64,000 bases of DNA from Escherichia coli (GTDB lineage: Bacteria > Pseudomonadota > Gammaproteobacteria > Enterobacterales > Enterobacteriaceae), in assembly GCF_001677475.2 (NCBI RefSeq), contig NZ_CP015229.1; one strand, 5' to 3'. This document shows positions 16,418 through 35,255 of this stretch, piece by piece. A model generated the notes under the pieces. It saw only the letters and a program-made list of their open reading frames with translations. It did no database searches and was not told the origin of the DNA. Made by a program: the position numbers and the translations under genes. Position 1 is the stretch's first letter. Each line of letters starts with the position of its first letter.

Positions 16418-19400
16418 ATGAGACACTTTATCTTTCAGGACGAAAAATCACATAAATTCTGGGCGGTGGAGCAGCAGGGAAACGAGCTGCATATCAACTG
16501 GGGAAAAGTCGGCACCAACGGGCAAAGTCAGGTAAAAAGCTTTGCTGATGCTGCGGCGGCGGAAAAAGCGGAACTGAAGTTGATTGCGGAGAAGATTAAG
16601 AAGGGGTATGTGGATGATGGTTCGCCAGAAACCATCATAAACTCTCCGATATCAAGCACAGTTTCAGTACAAGAGTTAGCAATATCAACAGGAAACTTCA
16701 CAACGACTGAAACGGCACAGCCACAAGCGATGCCCACGTTGGAAACGCCGCCCTGGCTGAAGAACGGTGAGTCAATTGTTATTTTTGCCAATGCTGAACC
16801 CGCGCCGTTTAGCCATCGTCACTTGATTAATGATCCTCTGGACATTGTTGATAAAGATGGCTTCTTCTGGATACAACTAAAAGAGTACCCATATTGGGCA
16901 GCATTTTACCTTGCCTGTCTGCAAAAGTTCGATGTCAGCCAATGCCAGTCAGAATGGCAATTGGCGTTACAGGAAACTATTTCGCGCATCCAGAAATTAC
17001 AGCAAGACGGATCGTTGCTTTCCGACGTCATATTGACACTGACAAGATTAATTATCGGCCGCCCCGGTCGCCCTCATACATGGCTGGATAGCATAGTGCA
17101 ACTGCGAGGCCTTGAGTATGCCACTGAGTTAGTTATCGCTATGCAGCATGTACAAATGACTGACGACGCAAATACCGATCCTACAAAAAATGCCACTTTA
17201 AAACTTCATTACAATAGTCTTTTTAGTGCGCTGAGAAGAGGGGAAATGGCAGACAATTATTATCTACCTGTAGTAAGCCTTAGCCACGATATTTCCGACA
17301 TGCGCTACAAATATGGATTCAGCGACGAAATAGAGTTACGTTTACGAGAACACCTTTCGCACACAGATGAGGAAACCTGGCAACGCTGTGCTAATAAACT
17401 CATAGATGCTCTCCCTTCACTGCCTCCCCGCAAACGCCCATTAATTGCTTTTTTGCTACCAGAAAAACCAGATATTGCCAATCAGATAGCCCTGGAAATT
17501 GCCCCTATGCATGATTACCCAGAGATTGAGTGGCTTTCCCTTGTCACAACTGACCCGCAAGCAACGTGTCTGCTGAAGAATTTCCATCAACTTGAACTCA
17601 CAACGGGATGGGGAGGCGATATGACGAATCGTTGTATTAAAACCCTACTGCGTGAACAAGGTCTTAATGCCCTGTCACGTCTGCAAGAGGGAGTTAACGA
17701 TAGTTATCCTGTCAGACACGCACTTCAGGAAATTAACCATCCTGATGTCGTTACGTTGTTTATCAAAGAGGAATGTGCCATAGGTGTCGAAATTTCGGCT
17801 TCGAAGTACCCAGAATCGGCGCTTTATGCCCTTACTGCAGCTTTGCTTAGTGCTAAAAATCTGAGGTATTCTCGCCTGATGGAACGAATTGTATTAGGTA
17901 ATGCTCAAACCTTGCGTAATACAATGCCCTGGTTGAGTGAGGAACAGAAACAACTTTTATTCAGTTATTTTCCTCAACTTCATGCTAAAGAAGAGATAGC
18001 CAATGCTTGTGAGTTACCCGGTATATTAACTAATCCAATTTGGCTGAAGAAAAAGAATAAATCCGCCACGACGATATTTACATTACCCGTATTGCCTCTG
18101 GAGTCCATTGGCCCCAACCCTCAGCCACAACCCGAAGCAGAAATACCTTCTACTGCTGAAGTCTTACGCCACCTGGGATTCAGTAGTGGAGCATTTGAAG
18201 AGAATAATCCTGATCCAGAAAGATTCGATATTAAATGGGGCGTAACCAAAACGGCCATTCGTCTTCTGGAAACGGAAGATTATGAATCGTTGTTAAATAC
18301 CCGACCAAAGTATGATTATGAAGGTTTTATTACCTTTTATGTATCCATACTCACTCGTCTACCAGCAGAGAAAGCGCTCTCAATCTGGAATGGACTCTCA
18401 CACATGCACCTCGTGGGTGCTGAGAAAGTGGTTGAGCGATTTGGTCTATCTACGGTACCGGGTCTGTTGCGTTATGCCCTGGTAAACCCTAAGGAGGCGG
18501 TTCCCCTGGCAGCACAATTCGGTGCAACTGAAGTTGCCCTGCTGATGGCCCGCGCATTTTGCCAGTTAAAATCCGTACGAGATGTCGCCGAATATTGGCT
18601 CACCACCTACCCGGAACATGCCATTACCGGGCTGCTGCCTATTGCGCTGGGTAAACCAGTTAAAGAACAACAAGATGCCCGGATGACATTACGCTACCTG
18701 GTCAATAATGGTCATCTCGCGTTGCTGAAAAAAATTGCCAGCCGTTACCAACAACCTGAGGTAATAACTGCACTTACCGACTTTTTAGCAGCAGATCCGC
18801 TGGAAAACTATCCACAGAAAATCGCCAAACTCCCTGGGTGGTGTTCACCAGAAGTATGGCACCGCCCGCTTCTGCGCAGTAACGGCAAGGCACTTTCAGA
18901 TTCAGCCATCCTGCACCTGTGCACCATGCTCTCTTTTCCCCGCGAAGCCACCCTTTACCCAGGGATAACACAGGTAATCAAGGCCTGTACTCCGCAATCT
19001 CTTGCCGATTTCGCCTGGGATCTCTTCCTCAGTTGGGAATCTGCCAGTGGCTCCGCTAAAGATAACTGGGCATTTACCGCACTGGGGATTCTGGGCAACG
19101 ATGACACCGCCCGCAAACTCACCCCGCTCATCCGCGCCTGGCCGGGGGAATCTCAGCATAAACGCGCCACTGTCGGGCTGGATATTCTTGCTGCTATCGG
19201 CAGCGATATCGCCCTGATGCAGCTTAACGGCATCGCGCAAAAGCTAAAATTTAAAGCCTTGCAGGATCAGGCAAGAGTTAAAATCGCCCAGATTGCCGAA
19301 AGCCGCCAACTCACCGTCGCAGAAATGGAAGACCGGTTAGCGCCGGATCTCGGACTGGATGATAACGGCTCACTACTGCTGGATTTCGGCCCACGCCAGT

Positions 19401-20254
19401 TCACCGTCAGCTTTGATGAATCCTTAAAACCGTTTGTGCGCGATGCTTCCGGCAGCCGCCTGAAAGACCTGCCCAAACCGAACAAAAGCGATGATGAAAC
19501 ACTGGCTGAGGAAGCGGTAAATCGCTACAAGTTGTTGAAAAAAGATGTCCGCACGGTGGCAGCGCAACAAATTTCGCGTCTGGAAGCCGCCATGTGTCAG
19601 CGTCGCCGCTGGACAGCAGAACAGTTCCGCCTGTTTCTGGTTGAGCATCCCCTGGTACGTCATATCACCCAACGTCTGATGTGGGGCGTATACGATGCAG
19701 ATAATCAGCTTATCACCTGTTTTCGCGTGGCGGAGGATGGCAGTTTTAGCGACGGTCAGGATAACCCGTTAACCCCTGCGCAGGGTAGCATCGGTATCCC
19801 GCATGTGCTGGAAATCCCGGCCCCGCAGGCGGCTGAATTTGCTCAACTGTTTTCTGACTACGAACTCCTGCCACCGTTCCGTCAACTCGATCGCCCCTGG
19901 TCTCAGCTCTCTGATTCAGAAAAAAACAGCAACGATTTGCAGCGCTGGGCTGGTCGCCAGGCACCAAGTGGGCGCGTCGCCGGGCTGATGAATAAAGGCT
20001 GGCAACGGGGCGATGTGCTGGATGGTGGCGGCTATTACTCATTTTATAAAGCTGTGGATGATGGCTACGTCGAACTGAGTGTGACACCCGGCTTCAGTGT
20101 TGGATTACCCGTCACCGAAATCAGCGCCAGCCAAAAAATTGAGCACATTCAGTTGTGCAAACTGACGCCGCACAAATCGGTTTATCCCTTCTCCGTGCTC
20201 GACGACATCACCGCCAGCGAACTCATTAACGATATTGAATCACTGTTTGATTAA
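16418..20254 (+). CDS. molR: giant WGR-domain protein with DUF4132-like C-terminal region, paralog 1
   Basis: 1278-aa ORF; N-terminal ~65 aa with FQDEKSHKFWAVEQ...WGKVG (WGR-type) motif; first of three tandem paralogs; positional equivalent of K-12 molR (symbol assigned by position and recollection). Confidence 0.8.
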   Translation: MRHFIFQDEKSHKFWAVEQQGNELHINWGKVGTNGQSQVKSFADAAAAEKAELKLIAEKIKKGYVDDGSPETIINSPISSTVSVQELAISTGNFTTTETAQPQAMPTLETPPWLKNGESIVIFANAEPAPFSHRHLINDPLDIVDKDGFFWIQLKEYPYWAAFYLACLQKFDVSQCQSEWQLALQETISRIQKLQQDGSLLSDVILTLTRLIIGRPGRPHTWLDSIVQLRGLEYATELVIAMQHVQMTDDANTDPTKNATLKLHYNSLFSALRRGEMADNYYLPVVSLSHDISDMRYKYGFSDEIELRLREHLSHTDEETWQRCANKLIDALPSLPPRKRPLIAFLLPEKPDIANQIALEIAPMHDYPEIEWLSLVTTDPQATCLLKNFHQLELTTGWGGDMTNRCIKTLLREQGLNALSRLQEGVNDSYPVRHALQEINHPDVVTLFIKEECAIGVEISASKYPESALYALTAALLSAKNLRYSRLMERIVLGNAQTLRNTMPWLSEEQKQLLFSYFPQLHAKEEIANACELPGILTNPIWLKKKNKSATTIFTLPVLPLESIGPNPQPQPEAEIPSTAEVLRHLGFSSGAFEENNPDPERFDIKWGVTKTAIRLLETEDYESLLNTRPKYDYEGFITFYVSILTRLPAEKALSIWNGLSHMHLVGAEKVVERFGLSTVPGLLRYALVNPKEAVPLAAQFGATEVALLMARAFCQLKSVRDVAEYWLTTYPEHAITGLLPIALGKPVKEQQDARMTLRYLVNNGHLALLKKIASRYQQPEVITALTDFLAADPLENYPQKIAKLPGWCSPEVWHRPLLRSNGKALSDSAILHLCTMLSFPREATLYPGITQVIKACTPQSLADFAWDLFLSWESASGSAKDNWAFTALGILGNDDTARKLTPLIRAWPGESQHKRATVGLDILAAIGSDIALMQLNGIAQKLKFKALQDQARVKIAQIAESRQLTVAEMEDRLAPDLGLDDNGSLLLDFGPRQFTVSFDESLKPFVRDASGSRLKDLPKPNKSDDETLAEEAVNRYKLLKKDVRTVAAQQISRLEAAMCQRRRWTAEQFRLFLVEHPLVRHITQRLMWGVYDADNQLITCFRVAEDGSFSDGQDNPLTPAQGSIGIPHVLEIPAPQAAEFAQLFSDYELLPPFRQLDRPWSQLSDSEKNSNDLQRWAGRQAPSGRVAGLMNKGWQRGDVLDGGGYYSFYKAVDDGYVELSVTPGFSVGLPVTEISASQKIEHIQLCKLTPHKSVYPFSVLDDITASELINDIESLFD

Positions 20255-20266
20255 AAGGATTTAGCA

Positions 20267-23200
20267 ATGAAAACCTATATTTATCAGGACGAAAAATCAC
20301 ATAAATTCTGGGCGGTGGAGCAGCAAGACAACGAGCTGCATATTAGCTGGGGTAAAGTCGGTACTAACGGGCAAAGTCAGGTAAAAAGCTTTGCTGATGC
20401 TGCGGCGGCGGAAAAAGCGGAACTGAAGTTGATTGCGGAGAAAACAAAAAAGGGCTACGTAGAAGAAGTATCCGTGATAACACCGACATCTGTCCCCGTC
20501 CAGGTTATCGAATGCCCCGAAATAGCCCCTTTGCCACAAGACAAACCAGTATTTGTTGGAGACAACCTCCCCTGGCTGGCAGACGACGCCCAAATCATTT
20601 TACCGACAGAGGTTGCGCCAACCACACTAAGTCATCGACGCTGGCCTGGCGATCCTGTGCCACAGGAGAATGAATTAACTCTGCTACGCTCCGTCGCCGC
20701 GAATACTCACCGACGTTTTAAAAAGGTGATCACCTTCGATTACAGCACCTGTTCACTGGACTGGCAGCAGGCGATAACACAAGCAGTGGGCCTTATCGAC
20801 TCGCCGATTAGCACCACGCTACCACCGATGGTTCTGGCGGTACTGGTTGCGCTGGAACAAGGCTTCAATCGTAACGATCACGAAGAGTTAATGGATCAAA
20901 TTGTCCAGGAAGGTGGTCTGGAATATGCCACTGAGGTTGTCATTGCACTACAATTCATCCGCTTCGACTGGGATTATGATGCCCATCTTATTACGTTCAC
21001 CCCGGATGACAGGCAGCCTGGCTATCTGTTGCGCTTTGCCTCGGTTGAAATGCGCCTGCGCAAGCATTTCTCACTTGCAAATGACGATGTATGGCAGCGC
21101 TGCGCCGACAAACTGATTGCCGCTCTCGGAAACATGCCCGCCTGGCACCAGCCGCTGGTTGCACTATTGTTGCCGGAAAAACCAGAAGTAGCTCATGAGA
21201 TTGCCAGACATTTTTGCGGGCAAAAAGGGTTATATGCGCTGGAATGGCTAAAACTGACGGTCACCGATGCTCAGGTATTAGCAGACCTGGAAAAATACTA
21301 TCCAGGACAGCCTGGGCAGGTATTTGATGATTACTATGGCGGTAACATCTGGTGTGCGACAGCACTCCAGGAGCAAGGAGTCACTGCGCTGGCCCGTTTT
21401 GCCCATTACGCTACTGGTGACACATGTGGTGAAGTGTTGATGCATATCAACCACCCGCAGGCACTTACACTACTTATCCATGCAAGCGAGCAAGGAAAGC
21501 GTTGCCACGATCGCATGACAAAGGCTTTCGTTCGCTTCCCACACGCAGCGCTGGCGGCATTAGCAGAACTTCTGGCACAAAAAGATGAAAAGCGCTGGCG
21601 CATGATGCTAATGACGATGCTTATCTCGCAACCGGCACTAGCAGAACAGGTCACTCCCTGGCTCTCAACCCCCGCAGTTGCAGTGCTGAAATCATGCCAG
21701 CAACAACTGACACAGCCCTCAAACCATGCCAGCGCCGATCTACTGCCAGCCATATTAGTCTCACCGCCCTGGCTTTCGAAAAAGAAAAAATCTGTAATGC
21801 CGGTATTGGATTTAACGCCATTACCGCTGGAGTCATGCTGCACATTGACCGAGACGGCAGAAAAAGAGATTCATGCAAGGCATCGCTGGCACGCACATCA
21901 AATAGACGTCGGCCAAAAAGAGGATATTCAGAACTACCTGACACGTCTGGGTTTCAATCGCTGGAATAATGGCCAGTATATGAAAGCGTCTGATGCTGTT
22001 GTAGAACTCTGGCAGAGGGGAGATTATTCTGCGCTAATCAGCGAATTTAAAACCTTCTGGCACTCCTATCAACGGGAATGGCAGCTTTACATGTTAGCCG
22101 CCCTGCCTATCGAAAAAACAGCGCAGGCGTGGAATGTCCTCAGTAAAGAGCCACACGTCGGTGTCGAGTTTGTCATGACGCACCTGCAACTCGCTGGGTT
22201 ACAGGGTTTTATTCACTCCTTTTCACGCTATCCACAAGAAGCTCTGCCTGTAGCACAATATTTTGCGGCTATCGAATTAGCGCCACTGATCGCCCGCGCC
22301 TTCAACAAACTCAAAACCCTACGACAAGACGCCCGCACCTGGCTGCTGAAATACCCGGAACACGCCATTACCGGCCTGCTACCTTCGGCGCTCGGCAAAG
22401 CCGGTGAAGCACAGGATAACGCCCGCGCTGCCTTGCGTATGCTTACCGAAAACGGTCATCAGCCATTACTGCAAGAAATCGCCCGGCGTTATAACCAGCC
22501 GGAAGTAACAGATGCGGTGAACGCTCTGCTTGCGCTCGATCCCTTAGATAATCACCCGACAAAAATCCCCACTCTTCCGGCCTTTTATCAGCCATCGCTC
22601 TGGACGCGCCCGGTATTAAAAGCAAATGCCCAATCACTGCCAGATAGCGCCCTCCTACGCCTCGGCGAAATGCTCCGCTTCCCTCAGGAAGAGGCACTGT
22701 ATCCGGGATTATTGCAGGTGAAAGCCGCCTGTACCGCCGACTCACTGGCTGAATTTGCCTGGGATCTGTTTACCGCCTGGCAGACCGCTGGCGCACCGTC
22801 GAAAGAAAGCTGGGCGTTCACTGCGTTAGGTGTTCTCGGCAACGATGACACCGCCCGCAAACTGACGCCTTTGATTCGCGCCTGGCCTGGTGAATCCCAG
22901 CATAAACGCGCCACCGTCGGGCTGGATATTCTCGCTGCTATCGGTAGTGATATCGCCCTGATGCAGCTTAACGGGATCGCCCAGAAACTGAAATTCAAAG
23001 CATTACAGGAGCGGGCAAAAGAAAAAATTGCCGACATTGCCGAGAGTCGCGAACTGACGGTAGCGGAGCTTGAAGATCGGTTAGCACCGGATCTCGGTCT
23101 GGATGATAACGGTTCGCTGCTGCTGGATTTTGGCCCACGGCAGTTCGCCGTCAGCTTTGATGAAACCTTAAAACCGTTTGTGCGCGATGTTTCCGGCAGC

Positions 23201-24028
23201 CGCCTGAAAGACTTACCTAAACCCAATAAAAGCGATGATGAATCACAGGCGAACGATGCTGTTAACCGCTACAAATTGCTGAAAAAAGATGCGCGTACCG
23301 TCGCCGCCCAGCAGGTAGCAAGGCTGGAATCCGCCATGTGCCTGCGCCGCCGCTGGTCGCCGGAAAACTTTCAGCTCTTCCTGGTTGAGCATCCGCTGGT
23401 TCGTCACTTAACCCGCCGTCTGATTTGGGGCGTTTATAGCGCCGAAAACGAGCTACTGGCTTGCTTTCGCGTGGCGGAAGATAACAGCTACAGCACCACA
23501 GACGATGATCTTTTCACCCTGCCGGAAGGCGATATCTCTGTTGGTATTCCTCACGTTCTGGAAATATCACCCACGGATGCCGCTGCCTTTGGTCAGCTTT
23601 TTGCCGACTACGAACTGTTACCGCCGTTCCGCCAGCTTGACCGCAACAGTTACGCGCTGACAGAAGCCGAACGCAACGCCAGTGAACTGTCCCGCTGGGC
23701 CGGCAGAAAATGTCCGAGCGGTCGAGTAATGGGGCTGGCGAATAAAGGCTGGATGCGTGGTGAACCGCAGGACGGTGGCTGGATCAGCTGGATGATCAAA
23801 CCTCTGGGCCGCTGGTCGTTAATTATGGAAATCGATGAAGGTTTTGCGGTCGGCATGTCGCCAGCCGAACTGAGTGCCGAGCAACTCTTAAGCAAGGTGT
23901 GGCTATGGAAAGGCAAAGCAGAAAACTATGGCTGGAGGAGTTATTCAACACAGGAAGCGCAGTTCTCCGTACTCGATGACATCACCGCCAGCGAGCTGAT
24001 TAGCGATATTGAATCTCTGTTTGAATAA
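20267..24028 (+). CDS. giant WGR-domain / DUF4132-like protein, paralog 2
   Basis: 1253-aa ORF 12 bp after paralog 1 (AAGGA SD); N-terminal WGR region and C-terminal ~450 aa highly similar to paralog 1, central region divergent. Confidence 0.85.
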   Translation: MKTYIYQDEKSHKFWAVEQQDNELHISWGKVGTNGQSQVKSFADAAAAEKAELKLIAEKTKKGYVEEVSVITPTSVPVQVIECPEIAPLPQDKPVFVGDNLPWLADDAQIILPTEVAPTTLSHRRWPGDPVPQENELTLLRSVAANTHRRFKKVITFDYSTCSLDWQQAITQAVGLIDSPISTTLPPMVLAVLVALEQGFNRNDHEELMDQIVQEGGLEYATEVVIALQFIRFDWDYDAHLITFTPDDRQPGYLLRFASVEMRLRKHFSLANDDVWQRCADKLIAALGNMPAWHQPLVALLLPEKPEVAHEIARHFCGQKGLYALEWLKLTVTDAQVLADLEKYYPGQPGQVFDDYYGGNIWCATALQEQGVTALARFAHYATGDTCGEVLMHINHPQALTLLIHASEQGKRCHDRMTKAFVRFPHAALAALAELLAQKDEKRWRMMLMTMLISQPALAEQVTPWLSTPAVAVLKSCQQQLTQPSNHASADLLPAILVSPPWLSKKKKSVMPVLDLTPLPLESCCTLTETAEKEIHARHRWHAHQIDVGQKEDIQNYLTRLGFNRWNNGQYMKASDAVVELWQRGDYSALISEFKTFWHSYQREWQLYMLAALPIEKTAQAWNVLSKEPHVGVEFVMTHLQLAGLQGFIHSFSRYPQEALPVAQYFAAIELAPLIARAFNKLKTLRQDARTWLLKYPEHAITGLLPSALGKAGEAQDNARAALRMLTENGHQPLLQEIARRYNQPEVTDAVNALLALDPLDNHPTKIPTLPAFYQPSLWTRPVLKANAQSLPDSALLRLGEMLRFPQEEALYPGLLQVKAACTADSLAEFAWDLFTAWQTAGAPSKESWAFTALGVLGNDDTARKLTPLIRAWPGESQHKRATVGLDILAAIGSDIALMQLNGIAQKLKFKALQERAKEKIADIAESRELTVAELEDRLAPDLGLDDNGSLLLDFGPRQFAVSFDETLKPFVRDVSGSRLKDLPKPNKSDDESQANDAVNRYKLLKKDARTVAAQQVARLESAMCLRRRWSPENFQLFLVEHPLVRHLTRRLIWGVYSAENELLACFRVAEDNSYSTTDDDLFTLPEGDISVGIPHVLEISPTDAAAFGQLFADYELLPPFRQLDRNSYALTEAERNASELSRWAGRKCPSGRVMGLANKGWMRGEPQDGGWISWMIKPLGRWSLIMEIDEGFAVGMSPAELSAEQLLSKVWLWKGKAENYGWRSYSTQEAQFSVLDDITASELISDIESLFE

Positions 24029-24037
24029 GGAAATAAC

Positions 24038-27000
24038 ATGAACAAGGAATTACCGTGGCTGGCGGATAACGCACAACTGGAACTGAAATATAAAAAAGGC
24101 AAAACGCCGCTCAGCCATCGCAGTTGGCCGGGCGAACCGGTGCCTGTTATTACTGAAAGCCTCATCCAGACACTGGGTGATGAATTGCTACAAAAAGCTG
24201 AGAAGAAAAAAAACATTATCTGGCGTTATGAAAATTTTTCACTGGAGTAGCAGTCCGCCATCACGGAAGCCATCAACTTGATTGGCGAACACAAACCCTC
24301 AATTCCGGCACGGACAATGGCGGCGCTAGTCTGTATCGCGCAAAAGGACAGCCAACAGTTGCTCGACGAAATCGTCCAACAAGAGGGACTGGAATATGCG
24401 ACTGAGGTGGTGATTGCACGCCAGTTTATTACACGATGTTATGAGAGTGATCCTCTGCTAGTGACATTGCAGTATCAGAACGAGGACTATGGCTATGGTT
24501 ATCGCTCAGAAACCTATAACGAATTCGATCTGCGACTGCGTAAGCATCTCTCTCTGGCAGAGGAAAGCTGCTGGCAGCGTTGCGCCGACAAACTCATTGC
24601 CGCACTGCCAGGAATACCCAAAATTCGCCGTCCTTTTATTGCGCTGGTCCTCCCGGAAAAACCAGAAATAGCCAATGAGTTGGTAGGTCTTGAATGCCCG
24701 CGGACTCATTTTCATTCTAAGGAGTGGTTAAAAGCTGTTGCTACTGCCCCCCGGGCGGTGAGAAAACTCGAACACTACTGGAGCCAGGATATATTTAGCG
24801 ATCGCGAAGCCAGCTACATGTCGCATGAAAACCGCTTCGGGTACGCGGCCTGCGCCGCCCTTTTGCGTGAACAAGGACTGGCAGCCGTTCCGCGCCTGGC
24901 AATGTATGCCCATAGAGAGGATTGCGGAAGCCTGCTGGTACAAATTAACCATCCGCAGGTCATCCGCACCTTGCTGTTAGTTGCTGATAAAAACAAACCC
25001 AGCCTGCAACGTGTGGCTAAATACAGTAAAAATTTCCCCCACGCGACACTCGCCGCACTGGCAGAACTGCTGGCGCTAAAAGAACCACCTGCGCGTCCTG
25101 GTTATCCAATCATCGAAGACAAAAAGCTGCCTGCACAGCAAAAAGCACGTGATGAATACTGGCGTACGCTGTTACAAACGCTGATGGCATCGCAGCCACA
25201 ACTGGCAGAAGAGGTGATGCCGTGGTTAAGTACTCAAGCCCGGTCAGTGCTGAATAGTTATTTATCGGCACCGCCTAAAACGGTTATTGATAGCACCGAT
25301 AACAGCCAAATGCCTGAAATCCTCGTTTCACCACCGTGGCGTAGTAAGAAAAAAATGACAGTTCCACGTCTTGATTTGGCACCGTTCGAATTAACGCCGC
25401 AAGTTTACTGGAAACCAGGCGAACGAGAGAGGCTTGCCGCCACTGAGTCTGCCCGTTATTTCAGTACGGAATCTCTTGCGGAACGCATGGAACATAAAAG
25501 TGGACGAGTTGTACTACAGGAGCTGGGTTTTGGAGATGATGTATGGCTGTTTTTGAATTATATACTCCCCGGAAAACTGGATGCTGCACGCAATTCACTC
25601 ATTGTTCAGTGGCATTACTACCCAGGGCGGGTTGAAGAGATCATGAATGGCTGGAGCTCCCCGGAAGCTCAATTAGCAGAACAGGCGCTTCGCAGCGGTC
25701 ACGTAGAAGTGTTAATTAACATATGGGAAAATGACAGCTACTCACGCTATCGTCGGGAAAAGAGTATCTGGAACCTGTATTTATTGGCGCAGTTGCCGCG
25801 TGAGATGGCTTTGACTTTCTGGCTACGTATCAATGAGAAAAAGCATCTGTCTGCGGGTGAGGACTATTTTCTCAGTATCTTCGGATTGGATGCTCTACTA
25901 GGTCTGCTGTTGGCTTTTTCACATCGTCCAAAAGAAACATTTCCGTTAATTTTAAATTTCGGCGCAACCGAACTAGCCCTGCCCGTTGCCCGCGTCTGGC
26001 GACGTTTCGCGGCGCAGCGTGATCTGGCCCGCCAGTGGATTTTACAATGGCCGGAACATACGGCTACTGCACTTATCCCTCTTGTCTTCACCAAATCCAG
26101 CGATAATAGCGAAGCTGCATTACTTGCCCTGCGTTTACTTTACGAACAGGGACATGGCGAGTTACTGCAAACCGTGGCAAACCGCTGGCAGCGTACAGAT
26201 GTATGGCCTGCCCTGGAGCAATTACTTAAACAGAGTCCAATAGAGATTTACCCGACACGCATTCCAAAAGCCCCTGATTTCTGGCAGCCGGCAATGTGGT
26301 CCAGGCCGCGCCTTATCACGAATAATCAACCTGTTACTGATGACGCTCTGGAAATTATCGGCGAAATGCTGCGCTTTACCCAGGGCGGACGTTTTTATAG
26401 CGGACTGGAACAGCTGAAAACGTTTTGCCAGCCGCAAACGCTGGCAGCCTTTGCCTGGGATCTTTTCACCGCGTGGCAACAAGCTGGTGCTCCCGCAAAA
26501 GACAACTGGGCATTTCTGGCGTTAAGTCTCTTTGGCGACGAAAGCACGGCACGGGATCTGACGACACAGATCCTTGCCTGGCCACAGGAAGGCAAATCTG
26601 CCCGTGCTGTCAGTGGTCTGAATATACTTACTCAGATGAATAATGATATGGCACTGATACAGTTGCATCATATATCGCAACGGGCGAAATCCCGCCCCTT
26701 ACGTGATAACGCGGCGGAATTTCTTCAGGTGGTCGCAGAAAATCGCGGGCTAAGCCAGGAACAGTTAGCGGACAGATTAGTCCCAACACTGGGTCTTGAT
26801 GATCCGCAGGCGTTGATTTTTGATTTTGGTCCACGGCAATTTACCGTTCGCTTCGATGAAAACCTTAACCCGGTTATCTTTGATCAGCAAAACGTTCGCC
26901 AGAAAAGCGTTCCCCGGTTGCGCGCCGATGACGATCAACTGAAAGCACCCGAGGCACTGGCCCGACTAAAAGGGCTAAAAAAAGATGCCACTCAGGTGAG

Positions 27001-28104: not shown

Positions 28105-28194
28105 TTACTTCAACAAATCAATCAACCGTAACAGAGCCACTAATAGCTCCAGTACAGCAATGAGCACGGTTAACTTTTGTGTCAGCGTGTCCAT
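28105..28194 (-). CDS. zorO: 29-aa hydrophobic peptide, type I toxin-like (ZorO-like)
   Basis: ATG 28194 preceded by AAGGAG SD; translation MDTLTQKLTVLIAVLELLVALLRLIDLLK; ~175-nt leader from a consensus promoter; leader contains a 19-nt site complementary to the divergent sRNA. Symbol is from recollection of the ZorO-OrzO architecture. Confidence 0.6.
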   Translation of the reverse strand: MDTLTQKLTVLIAVLELLVALLRLIDLLK

Positions 28195-28432: not shown

Positions 28433-28515
28433 GTTGGAACACGATGTTGCACAGGCTGCGGTGTTGGGCCTGAAAATAGTAAATAAAAGAACCTGCCTCA
28501 CCAGCAGGTTTTTTT
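28433..28515 (+). ncRNA. orzO: small RNA, candidate type I antitoxin (OrzO-like)
   Basis: Consensus promoter directly upstream; 5' end UUGGAACACGAUGUUGCAC is complementary (18 of 19) to toxin leader site at 28267-28285; ends at strong terminator CCTGC-N7-GCAGG plus T7 (28492-28515). Confidence 0.55.
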
Positions 28516-28626: not shown

Positions 28627-29715
28627 ATGTCACCGCAGAATAATCATCTGCAGCGTCCGCCTGCCGCTGTGTTATACGCCGATGAACTGGCAAAATTAAA
28701 ACAAAATGATAACGCACCTTGCCCGCCAGGTTGGCAGTTAAGTTTGCCTGCGGCCCGCGCTTTTATCCTTGGCGACGAAGCGCAAAATATTAGCCGTAAA
28801 GTCGTGATCAGTCCCTCCGCTGTCGAACGCATGTTAGTCACTCTCGCTACCGGGCGCGGTTTGATGTTGGTGGGGGAACCTGGCACCGCAAAATCTCTCC
28901 TGTCTGAATTACTGGCGACCGCTATTAGCGGCGATGCCGGGTTAACCATCCAGGGCGGCGCATCTACCACCGAAGATCAAATCAAGTACGGCTGGAACTA
29001 CGCCCTGCTTATCAACCATGGTCCGTCAACGGAAGCGCTGGTCCCTGCCCCGCTTTACCAGGGAATGCGCGACGGCAAAATTGTCCGTTTTGAAGAGATA
29101 ACGCGTACACCGCTGGAAGTACAAGACTGTCTGTTAGGTATGCTTTCTGACAGGGTAATGACGGTGCCGGAACTCACTGGTGAAGCCAGTCAGCTCTATG
29201 CGCGGGAAGGCTTTAATATTATTGCCACTGCCAATACCCGCGATCGCGGCGTCAATGAAATGAGTGCTGCGCTAAAGCGTCGCTTCGATTTTGAAACTGT
29301 CTTTCCGATTATGGATTTCGCCCAGGAGCTGGAACTGGTCGCCAGTGCTTCCGCGCGTTTGCTGGCCCATAGCGGTATTCCGCATAAAGTGCCTGACGCG
29401 GTACTGGAATTACTGGTGCGCACGTTCCGCGATCTGCGTGCCAACGGCGAAAAGAAAACGTCAATGGATACACTGACAGCGATTATGTCCACCGCTGAAG
29501 CCGTTAACGTGGCCCATGCTGTGGGTGTCCGCGCCTGGTTTTTAGCGAATCGCGCGGGGGAGCCTGCCGACCTGGTGGATTGTATTGCCGGAACCATCGT
29601 CAAAGATAACGAAGAAGATCGCGCGCGTCTGCGCCGTTACTTCGAACAGCGCGTCGCCACACATAAAGAAGCTCACTGGCAGGCTTATTATCAAGCTCGC
29701 CACCGCCTGCCGTGA
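28627..29715 (+). CDS. yehL: MoxR-like AAA+ ATPase (AAA_5 type)
   Basis: 362-aa product from ATG 28627; Walker A LVGEPGTAKS, Walker B-like VRFEEIT; ORF N-terminal extension from 28561 rejected. Confidence 0.85.
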   Translation: MSPQNNHLQRPPAAVLYADELAKLKQNDNAPCPPGWQLSLPAARAFILGDEAQNISRKVVISPSAVERMLVTLATGRGLMLVGEPGTAKSLLSELLATAISGDAGLTIQGGASTTEDQIKYGWNYALLINHGPSTEALVPAPLYQGMRDGKIVRFEEITRTPLEVQDCLLGMLSDRVMTVPELTGEASQLYAREGFNIIATANTRDRGVNEMSAALKRRFDFETVFPIMDFAQELELVASASARLLAHSGIPHKVPDAVLELLVRTFRDLRANGEKKTSMDTLTAIMSTAEAVNVAHAVGVRAWFLANRAGEPADLVDCIAGTIVKDNEEDRARLRRYFEQRVATHKEAHWQAYYQARHRLP

Positions 29716-29725
29716 GGAAAGATGC

Positions 29726-32005
29726 ATGAGCGAGCCGTTAATTGTCGGCATCCGGCATCATAGTCCGGCCTGCGCCCGGCTGGTGAAATCGTTAATCGAA
29801 AGCCAGCGGCCACGATACGTGTTGATTGAAGGCCCGGCTGATTTTAATGACCGGGTAGACGAACTGTTGTTAGCCCACCAGCTTCCGGTAGCTATTTACA
29901 GTTATTGCCAGTATCAGGACGGTGCGGCCCCCGGGTGTGGTGCCTGGACGCCATTTGCTGAATTTTCGCCAGAGTGGCAGGCGCTACAAGCCGCACGTCG
30001 TATTCAGGCACAAACTTACTTCATCGATTTGCCTTGCTGGGCACAGAGTGAAGAAGAGGACGATTCGCCTGATACGCAAGAGGAAAGCCAGACCTTGCTG
30101 CTGCGTGCCACCCGCATGGATAACAGCGATACCCTGTGGGATCACTTGTTCGAAGATGAAAGCCAGCAAACTGCATTACCCTCTGCGCTGGTGCACTATT
30201 TTGCCCAACTGCGGGGCGACTCCCCCGGAGATGCTCTCAATCGTCAGCGTGAAGCCTTTATGGCCCGCTGGATTTCATGGGCGATGCAGCAAAATAATGG
30301 CGACGTGTTAGTTGTCTGCGGAGGCTGGCACGCTCCGGCACTGGCAAAAATGTGGCGCGAATGCCCGCAGGAAATTAACACGCCAGAATTGCCCTCGCTG
30401 GCAGATGCCGTTACAGGTTGTTATCTCACACCCTACAGTGAAAAGCGCCTTGATGTGCTGGCAGGATACCTTTCAGGAATGCCTGCCCCGGTCTGGCAAA
30501 ACTGGTGCTGGCGGTGGGGCTTGCAGCAGGCAGGTGAACAACTGCTGAAAACGGTTCTTACCCATTTGCGCCAGCACCACTTGCCTGCTTCAACAGCGGA
30601 TATGGCTGCCGCTCATCTACATGCGATGGCACTGGCACAGTTGCGTGGTCATACACTACCGTTACGCACTGACTGGCTGGATGCCATAGCAGGCTCGCTG
30701 ATTAAAGAAGCCCTGAATGCGCCGTTGCCGTGGAGCTATCGCGGCGTTATTCATCCCGATACCGATCCGATTCTGCTAACGTTGATAGACACATTAGCGG
30801 GTGACGGATTCGGTAAACTTGCCCCTTCTACGCCACAACCGCCTCTGCCAAAAGATGTCACCTGCGAACTGGAACGTACAGGAATCTCTTTTCCGGCGGA
30901 GCTTACCTTAAATCGCTTTACCCCCGATGGACTGGCGCAAAGTCAGGTGTTACATCGGCTGGCAATACTGGAGATCCCAGGGATTGTGCGCCAGCAGGGA
31001 AGTACACTGACACTTGCAGGCAACGGTGAAGAACACTGGAAATTAACCCGCCCGCTTAGCCAGCATGCGGCATTGATTGAGGCCGCATGCTTTGGTGCCA
31101 CACTCCAGGAAGCCGCACGCCATAAATTAGAAGCCGATATGCTGGACGCGGGTGGAATCGGCAGTATCACCACATGTCTTAGCCAGGCGGCGTTAGCGGG
31201 TCTGGCGTCCTTCAGTCAACAATTACTGGAGCAACTCACATTATTAATCGCCCAGGAAAATCAATTTGCCGAAATGGGCCAGGCGCTGGAAGTGCTATAT
31301 GCCTTATGGCGGCTGGATGAAATTAGCGGTATGCAAGGCGCGCAGATATTACAAACGACGTTATGCGCGGCTATCGATCGCACGCTGTGGCTGTGTGAAT
31401 CTAACGGCAGACCAGATGAAAAGGAGTTTCACGCTCACCTGCATAGCTGGCAGGCGCTTTGCCATATCCTGCGCGATCTACATAGCGGCGTTAATTTACC
31501 CGGCGTTTCTCTTTCTGCGGCGGTAGCCTTACTGGAGCGCCGCAGTCAGGCGATTCATGCCCCGGCGCTGGATCGCGGCGCGGCTCTTGGCGCACTGATG
31601 CGTCTGGAACATCCCAACGCCAGTGCCGAAGCGGCGCTGACGATGCTGGCGCAGTTATCCCCGACACAGTCCGGCGAGGCGCTGCACGGTTTGCTGGCAT
31701 TAGCCCGTCATCAACTGGCCTGTCAGCCGGCATTTATCGCCGGTTTCAGTAGTCATTTAAATCAACGGAGTGACGACGATTTTATTAACGCCCTGCCCGA
31801 TTTACGCGCGGCGATGGCCTGGCTACCACCACGAGAACGCGGGACGCTGGCGCATCAGGTGCTTGAGCATTACCAGCTCGCACAGCTTCCCGTTTCAGCG
31901 CTGCAAATGCCGTTGCATTGTCCACCGCAAGCCATTGCACATCATCAACAACTCGAACAGCAGGCACTGGCATCGCTGCAACACTGGGGAGTTTTCCATG
32001 TCTGA
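29726..32005 (+). CDS. yehM: large protein of unknown function
   Basis: 759-aa product from ATG 29726 (GAGGAAAG SD; 10 bp after yehL stop); no recognisable catalytic motif. Confidence 0.8.
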   Translation: MSEPLIVGIRHHSPACARLVKSLIESQRPRYVLIEGPADFNDRVDELLLAHQLPVAIYSYCQYQDGAAPGCGAWTPFAEFSPEWQALQAARRIQAQTYFIDLPCWAQSEEEDDSPDTQEESQTLLLRATRMDNSDTLWDHLFEDESQQTALPSALVHYFAQLRGDSPGDALNRQREAFMARWISWAMQQNNGDVLVVCGGWHAPALAKMWRECPQEINTPELPSLADAVTGCYLTPYSEKRLDVLAGYLSGMPAPVWQNWCWRWGLQQAGEQLLKTVLTHLRQHHLPASTADMAAAHLHAMALAQLRGHTLPLRTDWLDAIAGSLIKEALNAPLPWSYRGVIHPDTDPILLTLIDTLAGDGFGKLAPSTPQPPLPKDVTCELERTGISFPAELTLNRFTPDGLAQSQVLHRLAILEIPGIVRQQGSTLTLAGNGEEHWKLTRPLSQHAALIEAACFGATLQEAARHKLEADMLDAGGIGSITTCLSQAALAGLASFSQQLLEQLTLLIAQENQFAEMGQALEVLYALWRLDEISGMQGAQILQTTLCAAIDRTLWLCESNGRPDEKEFHAHLHSWQALCHILRDLHSGVNLPGVSLSAAVALLERRSQAIHAPALDRGAALGALMRLEHPNASAEAALTMLAQLSPTQSGEALHGLLALARHQLACQPAFIAGFSSHLNQRSDDDFINALPDLRAAMAWLPPRERGTLAHQVLEHYQLAQLPVSALQMPLHCPPQAIAHHQQLEQQALASLQHWGVFHV

Positions 32006-33134
32006 ACTGAACGATCTTCTGACCACCCGTGAGCTACAACGCTGGCGATTAATTCTTGGAGAAGCGGCAGAAACGACGCTTTGTGGGCTGGATGACAACG
32101 CCCGGCAGATAGACCACGCGCTGGAGTGGCTGTATGGGCGCGATCCTGAACGGCTCCAGCGTGGTGAACGTTCCGGTGGATTAGGTAGCTCAAATCTCAC
32201 CACCCCTGAGTGGATCAACAGTATTCACACGCTGTTTCCGCAACAGGTGATTGAGCGGCTGGAAAGCGATGCCGTACTGCGCTACGGCATTGAAGATGTG
32301 GTGACGAATCTCGACGTGCTGGAACGTATGCAGCCTTCTGAAAGCCTGCTACGCGCCGTTTTGCACACCAAACATCTGATGAATCCCGAAGTACTGGCTG
32401 CCGCCCGCCGGATAGTGCGCCAGGTTGTTGAAGAAATTATGGCTCGACTGGCAAAGGAAGTTCGTCAGGCTTTTTCTGGTGTCCGCGATCGCCGTCGCCG
32501 CTCATTTATTCCACTGGCGCGAAACTTTGATTTCAAAAGTACTCTGCGCGCCAACCTGCAACACTGGCACCCGCAACACGGCAAGTTGTATATCGAATCC
32601 CCCCGCTTTAACAGCCGCATTAAACGCCAAAGCGAACAATGGCAACTGGTCTTACTGGTTGATCAAAGCGGCTCGATGGTTGACTCGGTGATCCACTCAG
32701 CGGTGATGGCGGCCTGTTTGTGGCAGTTACCCGGCATTCGTACCCATCTGGTGGCGTTTGACACAAGCGTCGTTGATCTCACGGCAGACGTTGCCGATCC
32801 GGTAGAACTATTAATGAAAGTACAACTGGGCGGCGGAACCAATATCGCCAGTGCCGTGGAGTATGGTCGGCAACTTATTGAACAACCAGCAAAAAGCGTC
32901 ATTATCCTCGTGAGCGATTTTTATGAAGGAGGTTCATCATCATTGCTGACGCATCAGGTGAAAAAATGTGTCCAGAGCGGCATCAAAGTGCTGGGACTGG
33001 CGGCGCTCGATAGCACCGCAACACCTTGCTATGACCGCGATATGGCCCAGGCACTGGTTAATGTCGGTGCACAAATAGCCGCCATGACGCCGGGCGAACT
33101 GGCATCATGGCTGGCGGAGAATCTTCAGTCATGA
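31998..33134 (+). CDS. yehP: von Willebrand factor A (VWA) domain protein with MIDAS motif
   Basis: 378-aa product; start ATG overlaps yehM stop (ATGTCTGA); MIDAS-like LVLLVDQSGSM. Confidence 0.85.
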   Translation: MSELNDLLTTRELQRWRLILGEAAETTLCGLDDNARQIDHALEWLYGRDPERLQRGERSGGLGSSNLTTPEWINSIHTLFPQQVIERLESDAVLRYGIEDVVTNLDVLERMQPSESLLRAVLHTKHLMNPEVLAAARRIVRQVVEEIMARLAKEVRQAFSGVRDRRRRSFIPLARNFDFKSTLRANLQHWHPQHGKLYIESPRFNSRIKRQSEQWQLVLLVDQSGSMVDSVIHSAVMAACLWQLPGIRTHLVAFDTSVVDLTADVADPVELLMKVQLGGGTNIASAVEYGRQLIEQPAKSVIILVSDFYEGGSSSLLTHQVKKCVQSGIKVLGLAALDSTATPCYDRDMAQALVNVGAQIAAMTPGELASWLAENLQS

Positions 33135-35131
33135 ATTCACTACGTCCGGAATTATTAGAACTGACACCGCAGGCGCTGACGGCGTTAAGCAATGCCGGTT
33201 TTGTGAAGCGCAGTCTTAAGGAACTGGAAAATGGCAACGTCCCGGAAATCAGCCATGAGAACGGTGTTTTACTCGCCACGTTCAGTGACGGTGTCCGTAC
33301 CCAACTGGCGAACGGTCAGGCACTGAAAGAGGCTCAGTGCAACTGCGGGGCCAGCGGCATGTGCCGTCATCGCGTGATGCTGGTGTTAAGTTATCAACGA
33401 CTTTGCGCTACCGCCCAGCCCACGGAAAAAGAAGAAGAGTGGGATCCAGCAATCTGGCTGGGAGAGCTGGCAACCCTACCCGATGTCACCCGTAAACGTG
33501 CACAAGCTCTTGTCGCTAAAGGCATCACCATTGAGTTGTTCTGTGCGCCGGGCGAAATTCCCTCTGCCCGCTTACCGATGAGTGATGTGCGTTTTTATTC
33601 CCGCAGCAGCATTCGTTTCGCACGCTGTGATTGTATTGAAGGCACGCTGTGTGAACATGTAGCACTGGCTGTGCAGGCCTTCGTCGAGGCCAAAACTCAG
33701 CAAGCGGAATTTAACCATTTGATCTGGCAGATGCGCAGCGAACACGCCGCATCATCTGACGATCCATTTGCCAGCGAAGAAGGCAAAACGTGTCGTCAAT
33801 ATGTTCAGCAATTAAGTCAGGCATTATGGCTGGGCGGCATCAGCCAGCCGCTTATTCATTACGAGGCTGCTTTCAGCCGCGCGCAGCAAGCGGCGGAACG
33901 CTGCAACTGGCGCTGGGTAAGTGAATCACTACGACAGCTACGGGCAAGCGTTGATGCCTTCCACGCCCGCGCCAGCCACTACCATGCCGGAGAATGCTTA
34001 CGTCAGCTTGCGGCATTAAACAGTCGATTAAATTGCGCACAAGAGATGGCCCGGCGCGACAGTGTTGGTGAAGTTCCTCCCATGCCGTGGCGCACGGTCG
34101 TTGGCGCTGGCATTGCCGGAGAAGCAAAGCTTGATCATCTGCGGCTGGTGTCTTTAGGTATGCGTTGCTGGCAGGATATTGAGCAGTATGGTTTACGCAT
34201 CTGGTTTACCGATCCCGACACCGGCAGTATTTTGCATCTTTCGCGTAGTTGGCCGAGAAGCGAACAGGAAAACTCACCGGCAACGACGCGTCGGCTGTTT
34301 AGTTTTCAGGCTGGCGCACTGGCTGGTGGGCAAATTGTTTCACAAGCAGCAAAACGCAGTGCCGATGGCGAGCTGCTGTTAGCTACCCGCAACCGCTTAA
34401 GCAGCGTTGTGCCGCTGTCGCCAGACGCCTGGCAAATGTTGAGCGCGCCATTGCGCCAGCCGGGCATTGTGGCTTTGCGGGAATATTTACGCCAGCGTCC
34501 CCCCGCCTGCATACGGCCTCTTAATCAGGTGGATAACTTATTTATTCTGCCAGTCGCTGAGTGTATTTCACTCGGTTGGGATAGCAGCCGCCAGACGCTG
34601 GATGCGCAGGTAATCAGCGGCGAAGGTGAAGATAATCTGCTGACGTTATCACTGCCAGCCTCAGCCAGTACGCCTTATGCCGTTGAACGTATGGCGGCGC
34701 TTTTGCAACAAACAGAGGACCCCGTGTGTCTGGTTTCTGGCTTTGTCAGTTTTGTAGAGGGGCAATTGACACTGGAACCACGGGTGATGATGACAAAAAC
34801 CCGCGCCTGGGCGCTGGACGCAGAAACTGCGCCTGTGGCACCGCTACCTTCTGCCAGCGTTTTGCCTGTGCCGTCTACCGCTCATCAGTTGCTGATGCGC
34901 TGCCAGGCGTTACTTATTCAACTGCTCCATAACGGTTGGCGCTATCAGGAACAGAGTGCTATTGGTCAGGCAGAGTTGCTGGCGAATGACCTCACCGCGG
35001 TGGGTTTTTATCGGCTGGCACATGTGTTGGCACAATTTCGTAATACAGAAAGCGAGGCATGGGTAGAAGCAATGAATAACGGTGTTTTACTTTGCGAACA
35101 ATTATTCCCCATGCTTCAGCAACAAGGATGA
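33131..35131 (+). CDS. yehQ: protein with two SWIM-type zinc-finger motifs
   Basis: Start ATG overlaps yehP stop (ATGA); two CxCx5CxH motifs (CNCGASGMCRH from 33338; CDCIEGTLCEH). Confidence 0.8.
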   Translation: MNSLRPELLELTPQALTALSNAGFVKRSLKELENGNVPEISHENGVLLATFSDGVRTQLANGQALKEAQCNCGASGMCRHRVMLVLSYQRLCATAQPTEKEEEWDPAIWLGELATLPDVTRKRAQALVAKGITIELFCAPGEIPSARLPMSDVRFYSRSSIRFARCDCIEGTLCEHVALAVQAFVEAKTQQAEFNHLIWQMRSEHAASSDDPFASEEGKTCRQYVQQLSQALWLGGISQPLIHYEAAFSRAQQAAERCNWRWVSESLRQLRASVDAFHARASHYHAGECLRQLAALNSRLNCAQEMARRDSVGEVPPMPWRTVVGAGIAGEAKLDHLRLVSLGMRCWQDIEQYGLRIWFTDPDTGSILHLSRSWPRSEQENSPATTRRLFSFQAGALAGGQIVSQAAKRSADGELLLATRNRLSSVVPLSPDAWQMLSAPLRQPGIVALREYLRQRPPACIRPLNQVDNLFILPVAECISLGWDSSRQTLDAQVISGEGEDNLLTLSLPASASTPYAVERMAALLQQTEDPVCLVSGFVSFVEGQLTLEPRVMMTKTRAWALDAETAPVAPLPSASVLPVPSTAHQLLMRCQALLIQLLHNGWRYQEQSAIGQAELLANDLTAVGFYRLAHVLAQFRNTESEAWVEAMNNGVLLCEQLFPMLQQQG

Positions 35132-35255
35132 AATAGTGCTTTTTACTAAGAGTTCTACTCCAGTTCCGGACTGCTCACGCCACGGCATTAGGCATATCCT
35201 ATATAGCCCCTGGTGAGAGTCACCAGTTTCTTGATTAAATAAAATGGAGTTTTAC

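What the first reader, a model, noticed from the sequence alone, without database searches (positions are those of the whole stretch)
33131..35131. Two SWIM-type CxCx5CxH zinc-finger motifs in the last gene of the yehLMPQ operon
Two motifs (CNCGASGMCRH and CDCIEGTLCEH) lie ~100 residues apart in the N-terminal third of YehQ. SWIM fingers are associated with nucleic-acid or protein-interaction roles, so YehQ is a plausible substrate-recognition subunit for the MoxR/VWA machine.
Basis: seen in the sequence. Interest (0 to 1): 0.4.

Follow-up and report, generated by a model that had tools for sequence, protein, structure and literature searches.

The report
Two SWIM zinc fingers in YehQ
The last gene of the yehLMPQ cluster does encode a protein with two conserved zinc-finger (SWIM) motifs, but public annotation already calls it a SWIM zinc-finger protein, and neither its function nor that of its ATPase complex has been tested.

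Summary
YehQ (window 33131-35131, 666 aa) carries CNCGASGMCRH (aa 70-80) and CDCIEGTLCEH (aa 166-176). These are the only CxCx5CxH matches in all six frames of the window, against about 3e-4 expected per protein. In 111 homologs (25-85% identity, Proteobacteria to Actinobacteria) the first Cys3His set is invariant and the second is at least 90% conserved.

yehQ is translationally coupled to yehP. It is the last gene of a conserved five-family cassette: DUF4132, YehL MoxR AAA+, DUF5682, VWA, SWIM.

RefSeq already names it a SWIM zinc finger protein, so the motif finding is not new. The "substrate-recognition subunit" idea is plausible but untested. In solved SWIM proteins the finger is a structural or protein-docking element, so the OB-like region is the more likely ligand binder.

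The parts
33131..35131 (+). yehQ CDS (666 aa plus stop), a SWIM zinc-finger family protein
   Evidence: ORF and translation. RefSeq names it 'zinc finger protein YehQ' or 'SWIM zinc finger family protein'. Pfam SWIM scores 29.7 bits against a cut-off of 19.6.
33338..33370 (+). SWIM motif 1, CNCGASGMCRH (aa 70-80)
   Evidence: Regex match. Pfam SWIM covers aa 56-88 and scores 21.2 bits on the fragment alone. C70, C72, C78 and H80 are invariant in 111 homologs. In the AF2 model the CxC sits at a strand end and the CxH at the N-terminus of helix 79-92.
33626..33658 (+). SWIM-like motif 2, CDCIEGTLCEH (aa 166-176), divergent
   Evidence: Regex match. Pfam SWIM scores only 15.6 bits (E 0.012), below the cut-off. 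Only 5 of 40 homolog module-2 fragments reach E<=0.01. C166, D167, C168, C174 and H176 are at least 90% conserved. In register with motif 1 by hhalign, E 9e-7.
33131..33415 (+). Module 1 (aa 1-95): helices, three-stranded sheet, zinc knuckle and helix
   Evidence: DSSP of the AF2 models, pLDDT 94. This is the most conserved domain of the protein.
33416..33730 (+). Module 2 (aa 96-200): duplicate of module 1
   Evidence: hhalign of module 1 against module 2 gives probability 91% and E 9e-7. The order of secondary-structure elements is the same.
33776..34102 (+). Helical bundle (aa 216-324)
34103..34825 (+). Tandem OB-like beta-barrel pair (aa 325-565)
34877..35125 (+). C-terminal helical bundle (aa 583-665)
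   Evidence: AF2 DSSP. This is the least conserved domain.
31998..33134 (+). yehP, a VWA (CoxE-type) protein; its stop overlaps the yehQ start (ATGA)
   Evidence: Pfam VWA_CoxE E 2.2e-72. The MIDAS motif DQSGS is present in 77 of 78 homologs. Junction sequence read.
29726..32005 (+). yehM, a DUF5682 protein; 8-nt overlap with yehP
   Evidence: Pfam DUF5682 E 2.7e-96. Always sits between the AAA+ and VWA genes.
28627..29715 (+). yehL, a MoxR-family AAA+ ATPase (YehL subfamily)
   Evidence: Pfam AAA_5 E 1.6e-34. The closest PDB sequences are Midasin AAA modules, E 7e-10. GEPGTAKS is present in all 72 homologs and the Walker B core VRFEE in all 72, 68 of them as VRFEEITR. Subfamily name from PMC3893208.
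24038..27670 (+). yehI, a DUF4132 protein and the fifth conserved family of the cassette; here interrupted by TAG at codon 71
   Evidence: Pfam DUF4132 E 9e-48. A DUF4132 gene is present in every locus long enough to show it. Nonsense codon at 24248-24250.
35210..35226 (+). Terminator-like hairpin followed by a T-run, after yehQ
   Evidence: Consensus scan only.

Best explanation
YehQ is a multidomain scaffold or adaptor subunit of a YehL-type MoxR AAA+/VWA remodelling complex.

Its N-terminal 200 residues are two tandemly duplicated modules. Each is pinned by a Cys3His (CxCx5CxH) SWIM zinc site. These sites are most likely structural zinc centres. They would shape a rigid protein-docking platform, as the SWIM domain does in ZSWIM8 and Shu2. 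That platform would hold YehQ onto its co-translated partners YehP (VWA/MIDAS) and YehM (DUF5682).

The ligand, which could be single-stranded nucleic acid or a client protein, is more probably engaged by the tandem OB-like barrels in the C-terminal half. The YehL ATPase would then remodel the bound target.

Shown here: the motifs exist, they are conserved, module 2 is a duplicate of module 1, the predicted fold resembles SWIM and OB folds, and the gene linkage is conserved. Inferred only: zinc binding, complex formation, and which part contacts the target.
For: - Motifs exist and are far beyond chance.
- Ligand residues are invariant (site 1) or at least 90% conserved (site 2) across 111 homologs at 25-85% identity.
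- Site 1 passes Pfam SWIM.
- The two modules are homologous, with the zinc ligands in register.
- The AF2 models are very confident, pLDDT 94 and pTM 0.91.
- In ZSWIM8 the SWIM domain is the zinc-binding 'central organizer' of a superdomain (PMC13083262).
- The C-terminal beta region matches tandem OB proteins.
- Start and stop codons overlap for yehM/yehP/yehQ.
- The same gene order, AAA_5, DUF5682, VWA_CoxE, SWIM plus DUF4132, occurs in 77 proteobacterial loci and in Mycobacteroides.
- The ATPase and MIDAS motifs are conserved.
Against: - There is no experimental data on YehQ or the complex in the searchable literature.
- Motif 2 fails the Pfam threshold, and about 6% of homologs have lost its ligands.
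- The OB resemblance is marginal by Foldseek E-value (1.5e-3), and the aligned query region is not reported.
- OB folds also bind proteins and sugars.
- In other MoxR-VWA pairs (general knowledge of the family, not tested here) the VWA protein alone is the adaptor, so YehQ could instead be the client.
Confidence: 0.5

Rival explanations
1. The SWIM fingers themselves bind DNA or RNA and are the target-recognition element. This is the nucleic-acid version of the first reader's idea.
For: SWIM was originally proposed as a DNA-binding or protein-interaction module (general knowledge). Module 1 is the most conserved part of YehQ. The cassette also carries WGR domains in the DUF4132 paralogs, and WGR is a nucleic-acid-binding domain in PARPs.
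Against: In the solved SWIM proteins that match best (ZSWIM8, Shu2), the finger is a structural or protein-protein element. The OB-like pair is a more conventional nucleic-acid binder.
Confidence: 0.15
2. The cassette is a metal-cofactor insertion or maturation chaperone, like CoxD/CoxE, NorQ/NorD or the chelatases. In this reading the Cys3His sites hold or hand over a metal ion.
For: YehP is a full-length match to VWA_CoxE (E 2.2e-72). YehL is weakly related to GvpN- and CbbQ-type ATPases. The neighbouring DUF4132 paralog is the historical 'molR' molybdate-metabolism locus (from memory, not verified here).
Against: No metalloenzyme gene is conserved next to the cassette in 35 genera; the only recurrent neighbours follow lineage synteny. 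Invariant Cys3His with a fixed 5-residue spacer is typical of a structural zinc site. The WGR and OB-like domains point elsewhere.
Confidence: 0.1
3. The cassette is an uncharacterised anti-phage or anti-mobile-element system. YehQ (SWIM plus OB) and the WGR-DUF4132 proteins would sense foreign nucleic acid.
For: Taxonomic distribution is patchy across Gamma- and Betaproteobacteria and Actinobacteria. yehL and yehM are de-repressed in hns/stpA mutants (PMC3686432). DUF4132 paralogs occur in 1-3 copies. A zorO-orzO toxin-antitoxin locus lies inside the cluster.
Against: None of the six proteins hits PADLOC. There is no recognisable effector such as a nuclease, TIR or pore. The gene is present in 5361 of 5426 complete E. 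coli genomes and lies in the same yehI-to-yehR gene order in the window and the one E. coli record read, unlike a typical accessory defence island.
Confidence: 0.15
4. YehQ is the client that the YehL-YehP machine remodels, not its adaptor.
For: In characterised MoxR-VWA pairs (general knowledge of the family, not tested here) the VWA protein bridges the ATPase to the client. D167, inside the second CxC, is near-invariant although zinc binding does not require it. It could be an acidic ligand for the MIDAS site (speculation).
Against: Strict 1:1 translational coupling and a rigid, confidently folded multidomain structure suit a stoichiometric subunit as well as, or better than, a client.
Confidence: 0.1

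Closest known systems
SWIM zinc finger domain (Pfam PF04434), as solved in human ZSWIM8 (PDB 9rwz) and yeast Shu2 (PDB 6dex)
   Different: YehQ has two tandem copies, the second below the Pfam threshold. It is bacterial. It is fused to an OB-like pair rather than to cullin-binding boxes, and it is linked to an AAA+/VWA machine rather than a ubiquitin ligase or Rad51-paralog complex.
MoxR AAA+ / VWA chaperone pairs (RavA-ViaA, CbbQ-CbbO, NorQ-NorD, CoxD-CoxE); the YehL subfamily of MoxR
   Same: YehL is the founding member of the YehL subfamily (PMC3893208). It lies two genes upstream of a VWA gene with an intact MIDAS motif, with yehM between them.
   Different: The cassette has three further obligatory families (DUF5682, SWIM/OB YehQ, DUF4132 with or without WGR) that the characterised pairs lack. 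No client is known.
Midasin/Rea1 (AAA_5 ring plus MIDAS domain)
   Same: YehL's closest solved sequence relatives are Midasin AAA modules, E 7e-10. The split YehL plus YehP pair mirrors the AAA_5 plus MIDAS logic.
   Different: Midasin is a single giant eukaryotic polypeptide with six AAA modules that acts on pre-ribosomes. Nothing links YehLMPQ to ribosome assembly.
Tandem OB-fold single-strand-binding modules (RPA70 DBD-A/B, Teb1 AB, POT1, HIN200)
   Different: There is no detectable sequence similarity. E-values are marginal. Nucleic-acid binding is untested.

Membership tests
SWIM zinc finger (PF04434) | CxCxnCxH metal-ligand signature | tested here: met
   Two exact CxCx5CxH matches, at aa 70-80 and 166-176.
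SWIM zinc finger (PF04434) | Profile-HMM score at or above Pfam's gathering threshold (19.6 bits): motif 1 | tested here: met
   The whole protein scores 29.7 bits. The motif-1 fragment alone scores 21.2 bits.
SWIM zinc finger (PF04434) | Profile-HMM score at or above Pfam's gathering threshold: motif 2 | tested here: not met
   15.6 bits, E 0.012. Only 5 of 40 homolog module-2 fragments reach E<=0.01. It counts as SWIM-like only through homology to module 1 (hhalign E 9e-7).
SWIM zinc finger (PF04434) | Ligand residues conserved across the family | tested here: met
   C70, C72, C78 and H80 are invariant. C166, C168, C174 and H176 are at least 90% conserved in 111 sequences. About 8 of 128 sequences have lost site 2.
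SWIM zinc finger (PF04434) | Fold resembles solved SWIM domains | tested here: met
SWIM zinc finger (PF04434) | Binds zinc with tetrahedral Cys3His geometry | not testable with these tools
The four ligands lie within 11 residues, so proximity is nearly guaranteed and is a weak test.
MoxR AAA+ / VWA system (YehL subfamily) | MoxR-family AAA+ ATPase with conserved Walker A and B motifs | tested here: met
   AAA_5 E 1.6e-34. GEPGTAKS is present in all 72 homologs and the Walker B core VRFEE in all 72, 68 of them as VRFEEITR. Subfamily assignment from PMC3893208.
MoxR AAA+ / VWA system (YehL subfamily) | Linked VWA protein with a MIDAS motif | tested here: met
   VWA_CoxE E 2.2e-72. DQSGS is present in 77 of 78 homologs. 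Linkage holds in all loci.
MoxR AAA+ / VWA system (YehL subfamily) | Physical ATPase-VWA(-YehQ) complex acting on a defined client | not testable with these tools
   Only translational coupling and synteny are available.
OB-fold nucleic-acid-binding domains (RPA-like) | Five-stranded barrel with a helix between strands 3 and 4 | tested here: inconclusive
OB-fold nucleic-acid-binding domains (RPA-like) | Binds single-stranded nucleic acid | not testable with these tools
   Needs EMSA or anisotropy.
Known anti-phage defence systems (PADLOC-DB 2.0) | Match to a defence-system protein model | tested here: not met
   No hit for YehI, YehK, YehL, YehM, YehP or YehQ at E<=0.01.

The most novel reading that the evidence does not exclude
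The DUF4132(WGR)-YehL-DUF5682-VWA-YehQ cassette could be a self-contained five-component machine that has never been characterised. It is spread across Proteobacteria and Actinobacteria. In this reading a Midasin-like AAA+/MIDAS motor is directed to nucleic acid, or to a nucleoprotein target, by YehQ's double-SWIM platform, its tandem OB-like barrels and the WGR domains. That would be a new kind of nucleic-acid surveillance, repair or defence system.
Probability: 0.2. Interest if true: 0.65.

Novelty: already known. Interest (0 to 1): 0.27.

Why it matters
The motif observation adds little by itself, because databases already label YehQ a SWIM zinc-finger protein.

The value lies in the context. 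E. coli K-12 has only two MoxR ATPases (PMC3893208). RavA has been studied; I found no functional study of YehL or its four conserved partners in the library searched. This analysis provides a domain map for YehQ: a double SWIM platform, a helical bundle, a tandem OB-like pair and a C-terminal helical bundle. It also shows that the conserved unit has five gene families, not four, and that it reaches Actinobacteria such as Mycobacteroides chelonae. Together these make the cassette's function directly testable.

Tried and rejected
- **Chance motif:** rejected. About 2.7e-4 motifs are expected, no other match exists in six frames, and the ligands are invariant.
- **PDB sequence searches:** nothing useful for YehQ or for the family profile.
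- **NCBIfam:** no model for YehQ, YehM or YehI.
- **PADLOC:** no hit for any cassette protein.
- **Literature:** searches for yehQ, yehL/M/P/I, DUF4132, DUF5682, MoxR+SWIM+vWA and WGR+MoxR found no functional study. The mentions of yehQ that I read were one strain-table entry (its result for yehQ was not read) and an entrapment-database false match.
- **The search for related loci with the 111-sequence alignment:** failed because no stretch was conserved enough. It worked with an 11-sequence alignment, but that biased the loci toward Gamma- and Betaproteobacteria.
- **Search for a sixth conserved neighbour:** all-against-all BLAST of flanking ORFs was swamped by shadow ORFs in high-GC genomes. 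The only recurrent outside genes were a sigma-70 factor and an NDH-2-like oxidoreductase in up to 7 genera, which is lineage synteny and not part of the cassette.
- **VWA-SWIM fusion proteins (P0007, P0069, P0179) as Rosetta-stone evidence:** rejected. The P0179 contig has fragmented neighbouring genes, and the E. coli cases have only 1-6 member sequences at the ATGA overlap. Frameshift or assembly artefacts are likely.
- **Zinc-site geometry:** could not be measured because model coordinates are not exposed.
Full report
**Observation.** Window 33131-35131 (+) is an ORF of 666 codons. Its ATG overlaps the stop of the upstream VWA gene (ATGA). Its translation contains exactly two matches to C.C.{5}C.H. 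CNCGASGMCRH is at aa 70-80 (nt 33338-33370) and CDCIEGTLCEH is at aa 166-176 (nt 33626-33658). With 18 Cys and 14 His in the protein, about 2.7e-4 such motifs are expected. Of 20,000 shuffles, 0.02% had one motif and none had two. No other match occurs in any frame of the 64-kb window.

**Identity of the gene.** The DNA matches yehQ in 5361 of 5426 complete E. coli genomes at 90-96% identity. RefSeq already names the product 'zinc finger protein YehQ' or 'SWIM zinc finger family protein'. Most protein clusters in the big protein collection carry a precomputed PF04434 hit. The presence of a SWIM finger in YehQ is therefore existing annotation.

**Are both motifs SWIM fingers?**
- Pfam SWIM scores 29.7 bits on the whole protein against a cut-off of 19.6, but it reports only the first copy, aa 56-88.
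- Scanned separately, fragment 1 scores 21.2 bits and passes. Fragment 2 scores 15.6 bits (E 0.012) and fails.
- Of 40 homologous module-2 fragments, only 5 reach E<=0.01.
- A profile-profile comparison of module 1 (aa 30-95) with module 2 (aa 125-195) gives probability 91% and E 9e-7, with CxC...CxH in register. Module 2 is therefore a diverged internal duplicate.
- An exhaustive HMMER search found 827 cluster representatives at E<=1e-3, 262 of them at E<=1e-30.
- In 111 full-length members at 25-85% identity, C70, C72, C78 and H80 are invariant. C166, D167, C168, C174 and H176 are at least 90% conserved.
- About 8 of 128 sequences have replaced the site-2 ligands with Thr or Ala while keeping the following helix. 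Site 1 looks indispensable; site 2 is usually kept but can be lost.

**Structure.** AlphaFold2 with the 111-sequence alignment gives pLDDT 94.1 and pTM 0.91. The N-terminal 215 residues modelled alone give pLDDT 93.7. Five regions are apparent:
- Module 1 (aa 1-95) has helices, a three-stranded sheet, the CxC at a strand end and the CxH at the N-terminus of a long helix.
- Module 2 (aa 96-200) repeats the same layout.
- A helical bundle covers aa 216-324.
- A beta-rich region covers aa 325-565, in which the pattern of three strands, a helix, then two strands occurs twice.
- A helical bundle closes the protein at aa 583-665.

It is in any case a weak test, because each ligand set spans only 11 residues.

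**Context.**
- Upstream genes are yehP (VWA_CoxE, E 2.2e-72), yehM (DUF5682), yehL (AAA_5), yehK, and yehI (DUF4132).
- Two further WGR+DUF4132 paralogs lie at 16418-20254 and 20267-24028.
- YehL names the YehL subfamily of MoxR AAA+ ATPases (PMC3893208). Its nearest solved sequence relatives are Midasin AAA modules.
- Across 72-78 homologous loci, Walker A (GEPGTAKS), the Walker B core (VRFEE) and the MIDAS motif (DQSGS) are essentially invariant.
- In 77 loci from about 35 genera of Gamma- and Betaproteobacteria the order is DUF4132 (one to three copies), then AAA+, DUF5682, VWA and SWIM. In Burkholderia the DUF4132 gene sits after the SWIM gene.
- Mycobacteroides chelonae has the same six genes with overlapping stops and starts. 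Other Actinobacteria carry family members.
- No other gene is conserved next to the cassette.
- yehK is confined to Escherichia among the loci examined. In this window and in most E. coli strains (PMC2887945) a zorO-orzO toxin-antitoxin locus also separates yehI from yehL. The ancestral unit therefore has five families, not the four of 'yehLMPQ'.
- yehL and yehM are de-repressed in hns/stpA mutants (PMC3686432).

**Mechanism.** The shown facts are the conserved Cys3His sites, the duplication, the SWIM-like and OB-like folds, and the strict linkage and translational coupling to an apparently active AAA+/MIDAS pair.

My best inference (about 0.5) is that the SWIM sites are structural zinc centres. 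They would build a docking platform that holds YehQ in the YehL-M-P complex. The model for this is ZSWIM8, where the SWIM domain is the 'central organizer' of a superdomain rather than the substrate contact (PMC13083262). The OB-like pair would engage the target.

The rivals are:
- direct nucleic-acid binding by the fingers (0.15);
- a metal-insertion chaperone of the CoxD/CoxE type (0.1);
- an unrecognised defence or surveillance system (0.15, not exclusive of the best explanation);
- YehQ as the client rather than the adaptor (0.1).

PADLOC gave no hits and no effector domain is evident. The gene is nearly universal in E. coli and lies in the same yehI-to-yehR gene order in the window and the one E. 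coli record read. These points argue against a classical defence island. The WGR and OB-like domains and the absence of a linked metalloenzyme argue against the cofactor idea.

**Verdict.** What this analysis adds is the second, sub-threshold finger as an internal duplicate, the ZSWIM8-like fold, the OB-like C-terminal half and the five-family cassette. Interest is modest for the finding itself. The uncharacterised cassette is a fair experimental target.

Noticed in passing
window 28105-28194 (-) and 28440-28515 (+): The yehK-yehL spacer holds a type I toxin-antitoxin locus. There is a 29-aa hydrophobic ORF (MDTLTQKLTVLIAVLELLVALLRLIDLLK) that fits the ZorO-type toxins described between yehI and yehL in E. 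coli O157:H7 (PMC2887945). There is also an Rfam OrzO-P antitoxin RNA match (RF02083, 101 bits against a gathering score of 60). It is a single copy here, not the tandem pair of O157.
   Followed up: partly
window 24248-24250 (yehI codon 71): yehI carries an in-frame TAG where an E. coli reference (L001) has TGG (Trp). In this strain the DUF4132 gene immediately upstream of the operon is therefore probably a pseudogene or is N-terminally truncated. The next possible start is the TTG at 24278.
   Followed up: partly
window 16418-20254 and 20267-24028 (+): Two more large tandem paralogs (1278 and 1253 aa) each combine an N-terminal WGR domain (E about 1e-18) with a C-terminal DUF4132. With yehI that makes three DUF4132 genes in a row. 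The copy number is 1-3 in other genomes.
   Followed up: partly
YehQ aa 167 (window 33629-33631): The residue between the two cysteines of the second finger (CDC) is Asp in 124 of 128 homologs, although zinc binding does not require it. The equivalent position in finger 1 is Ser, Thr or Asn. It could be a contact residue, for example for the YehP MIDAS site. This is speculation.
   Followed up: no
protein clusters P0043, P0045, P0055, P0071, P0077, P0094: Many E. coli and Shigella yehQ alleles are shorter than 666 aa. Forms of 416, 501, 517 and 623-627 aa occur, some with hundreds of member sequences. This suggests recurrent truncation or decay of the gene in some lineages.
   Followed up: no
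P0007, P0069, P0070 (E. coli) and P0179 / L082:10001-12337: Some predicted proteins fuse the VWA (YehP) and SWIM (YehQ) reading frames. The clusters are tiny, and the P0179 contig has fragmented neighbouring genes. These are probably frameshift or assembly artefacts at the overlapping stop/start, not natural fusions.
   Followed up: partly
L043, L050, L063, L073, L076, L079 (Burkholderia): In Burkholderia the DUF4132 gene lies downstream of the SWIM gene instead of upstream of the ATPase gene. The cassette has been rearranged but kept intact.
   Followed up: no
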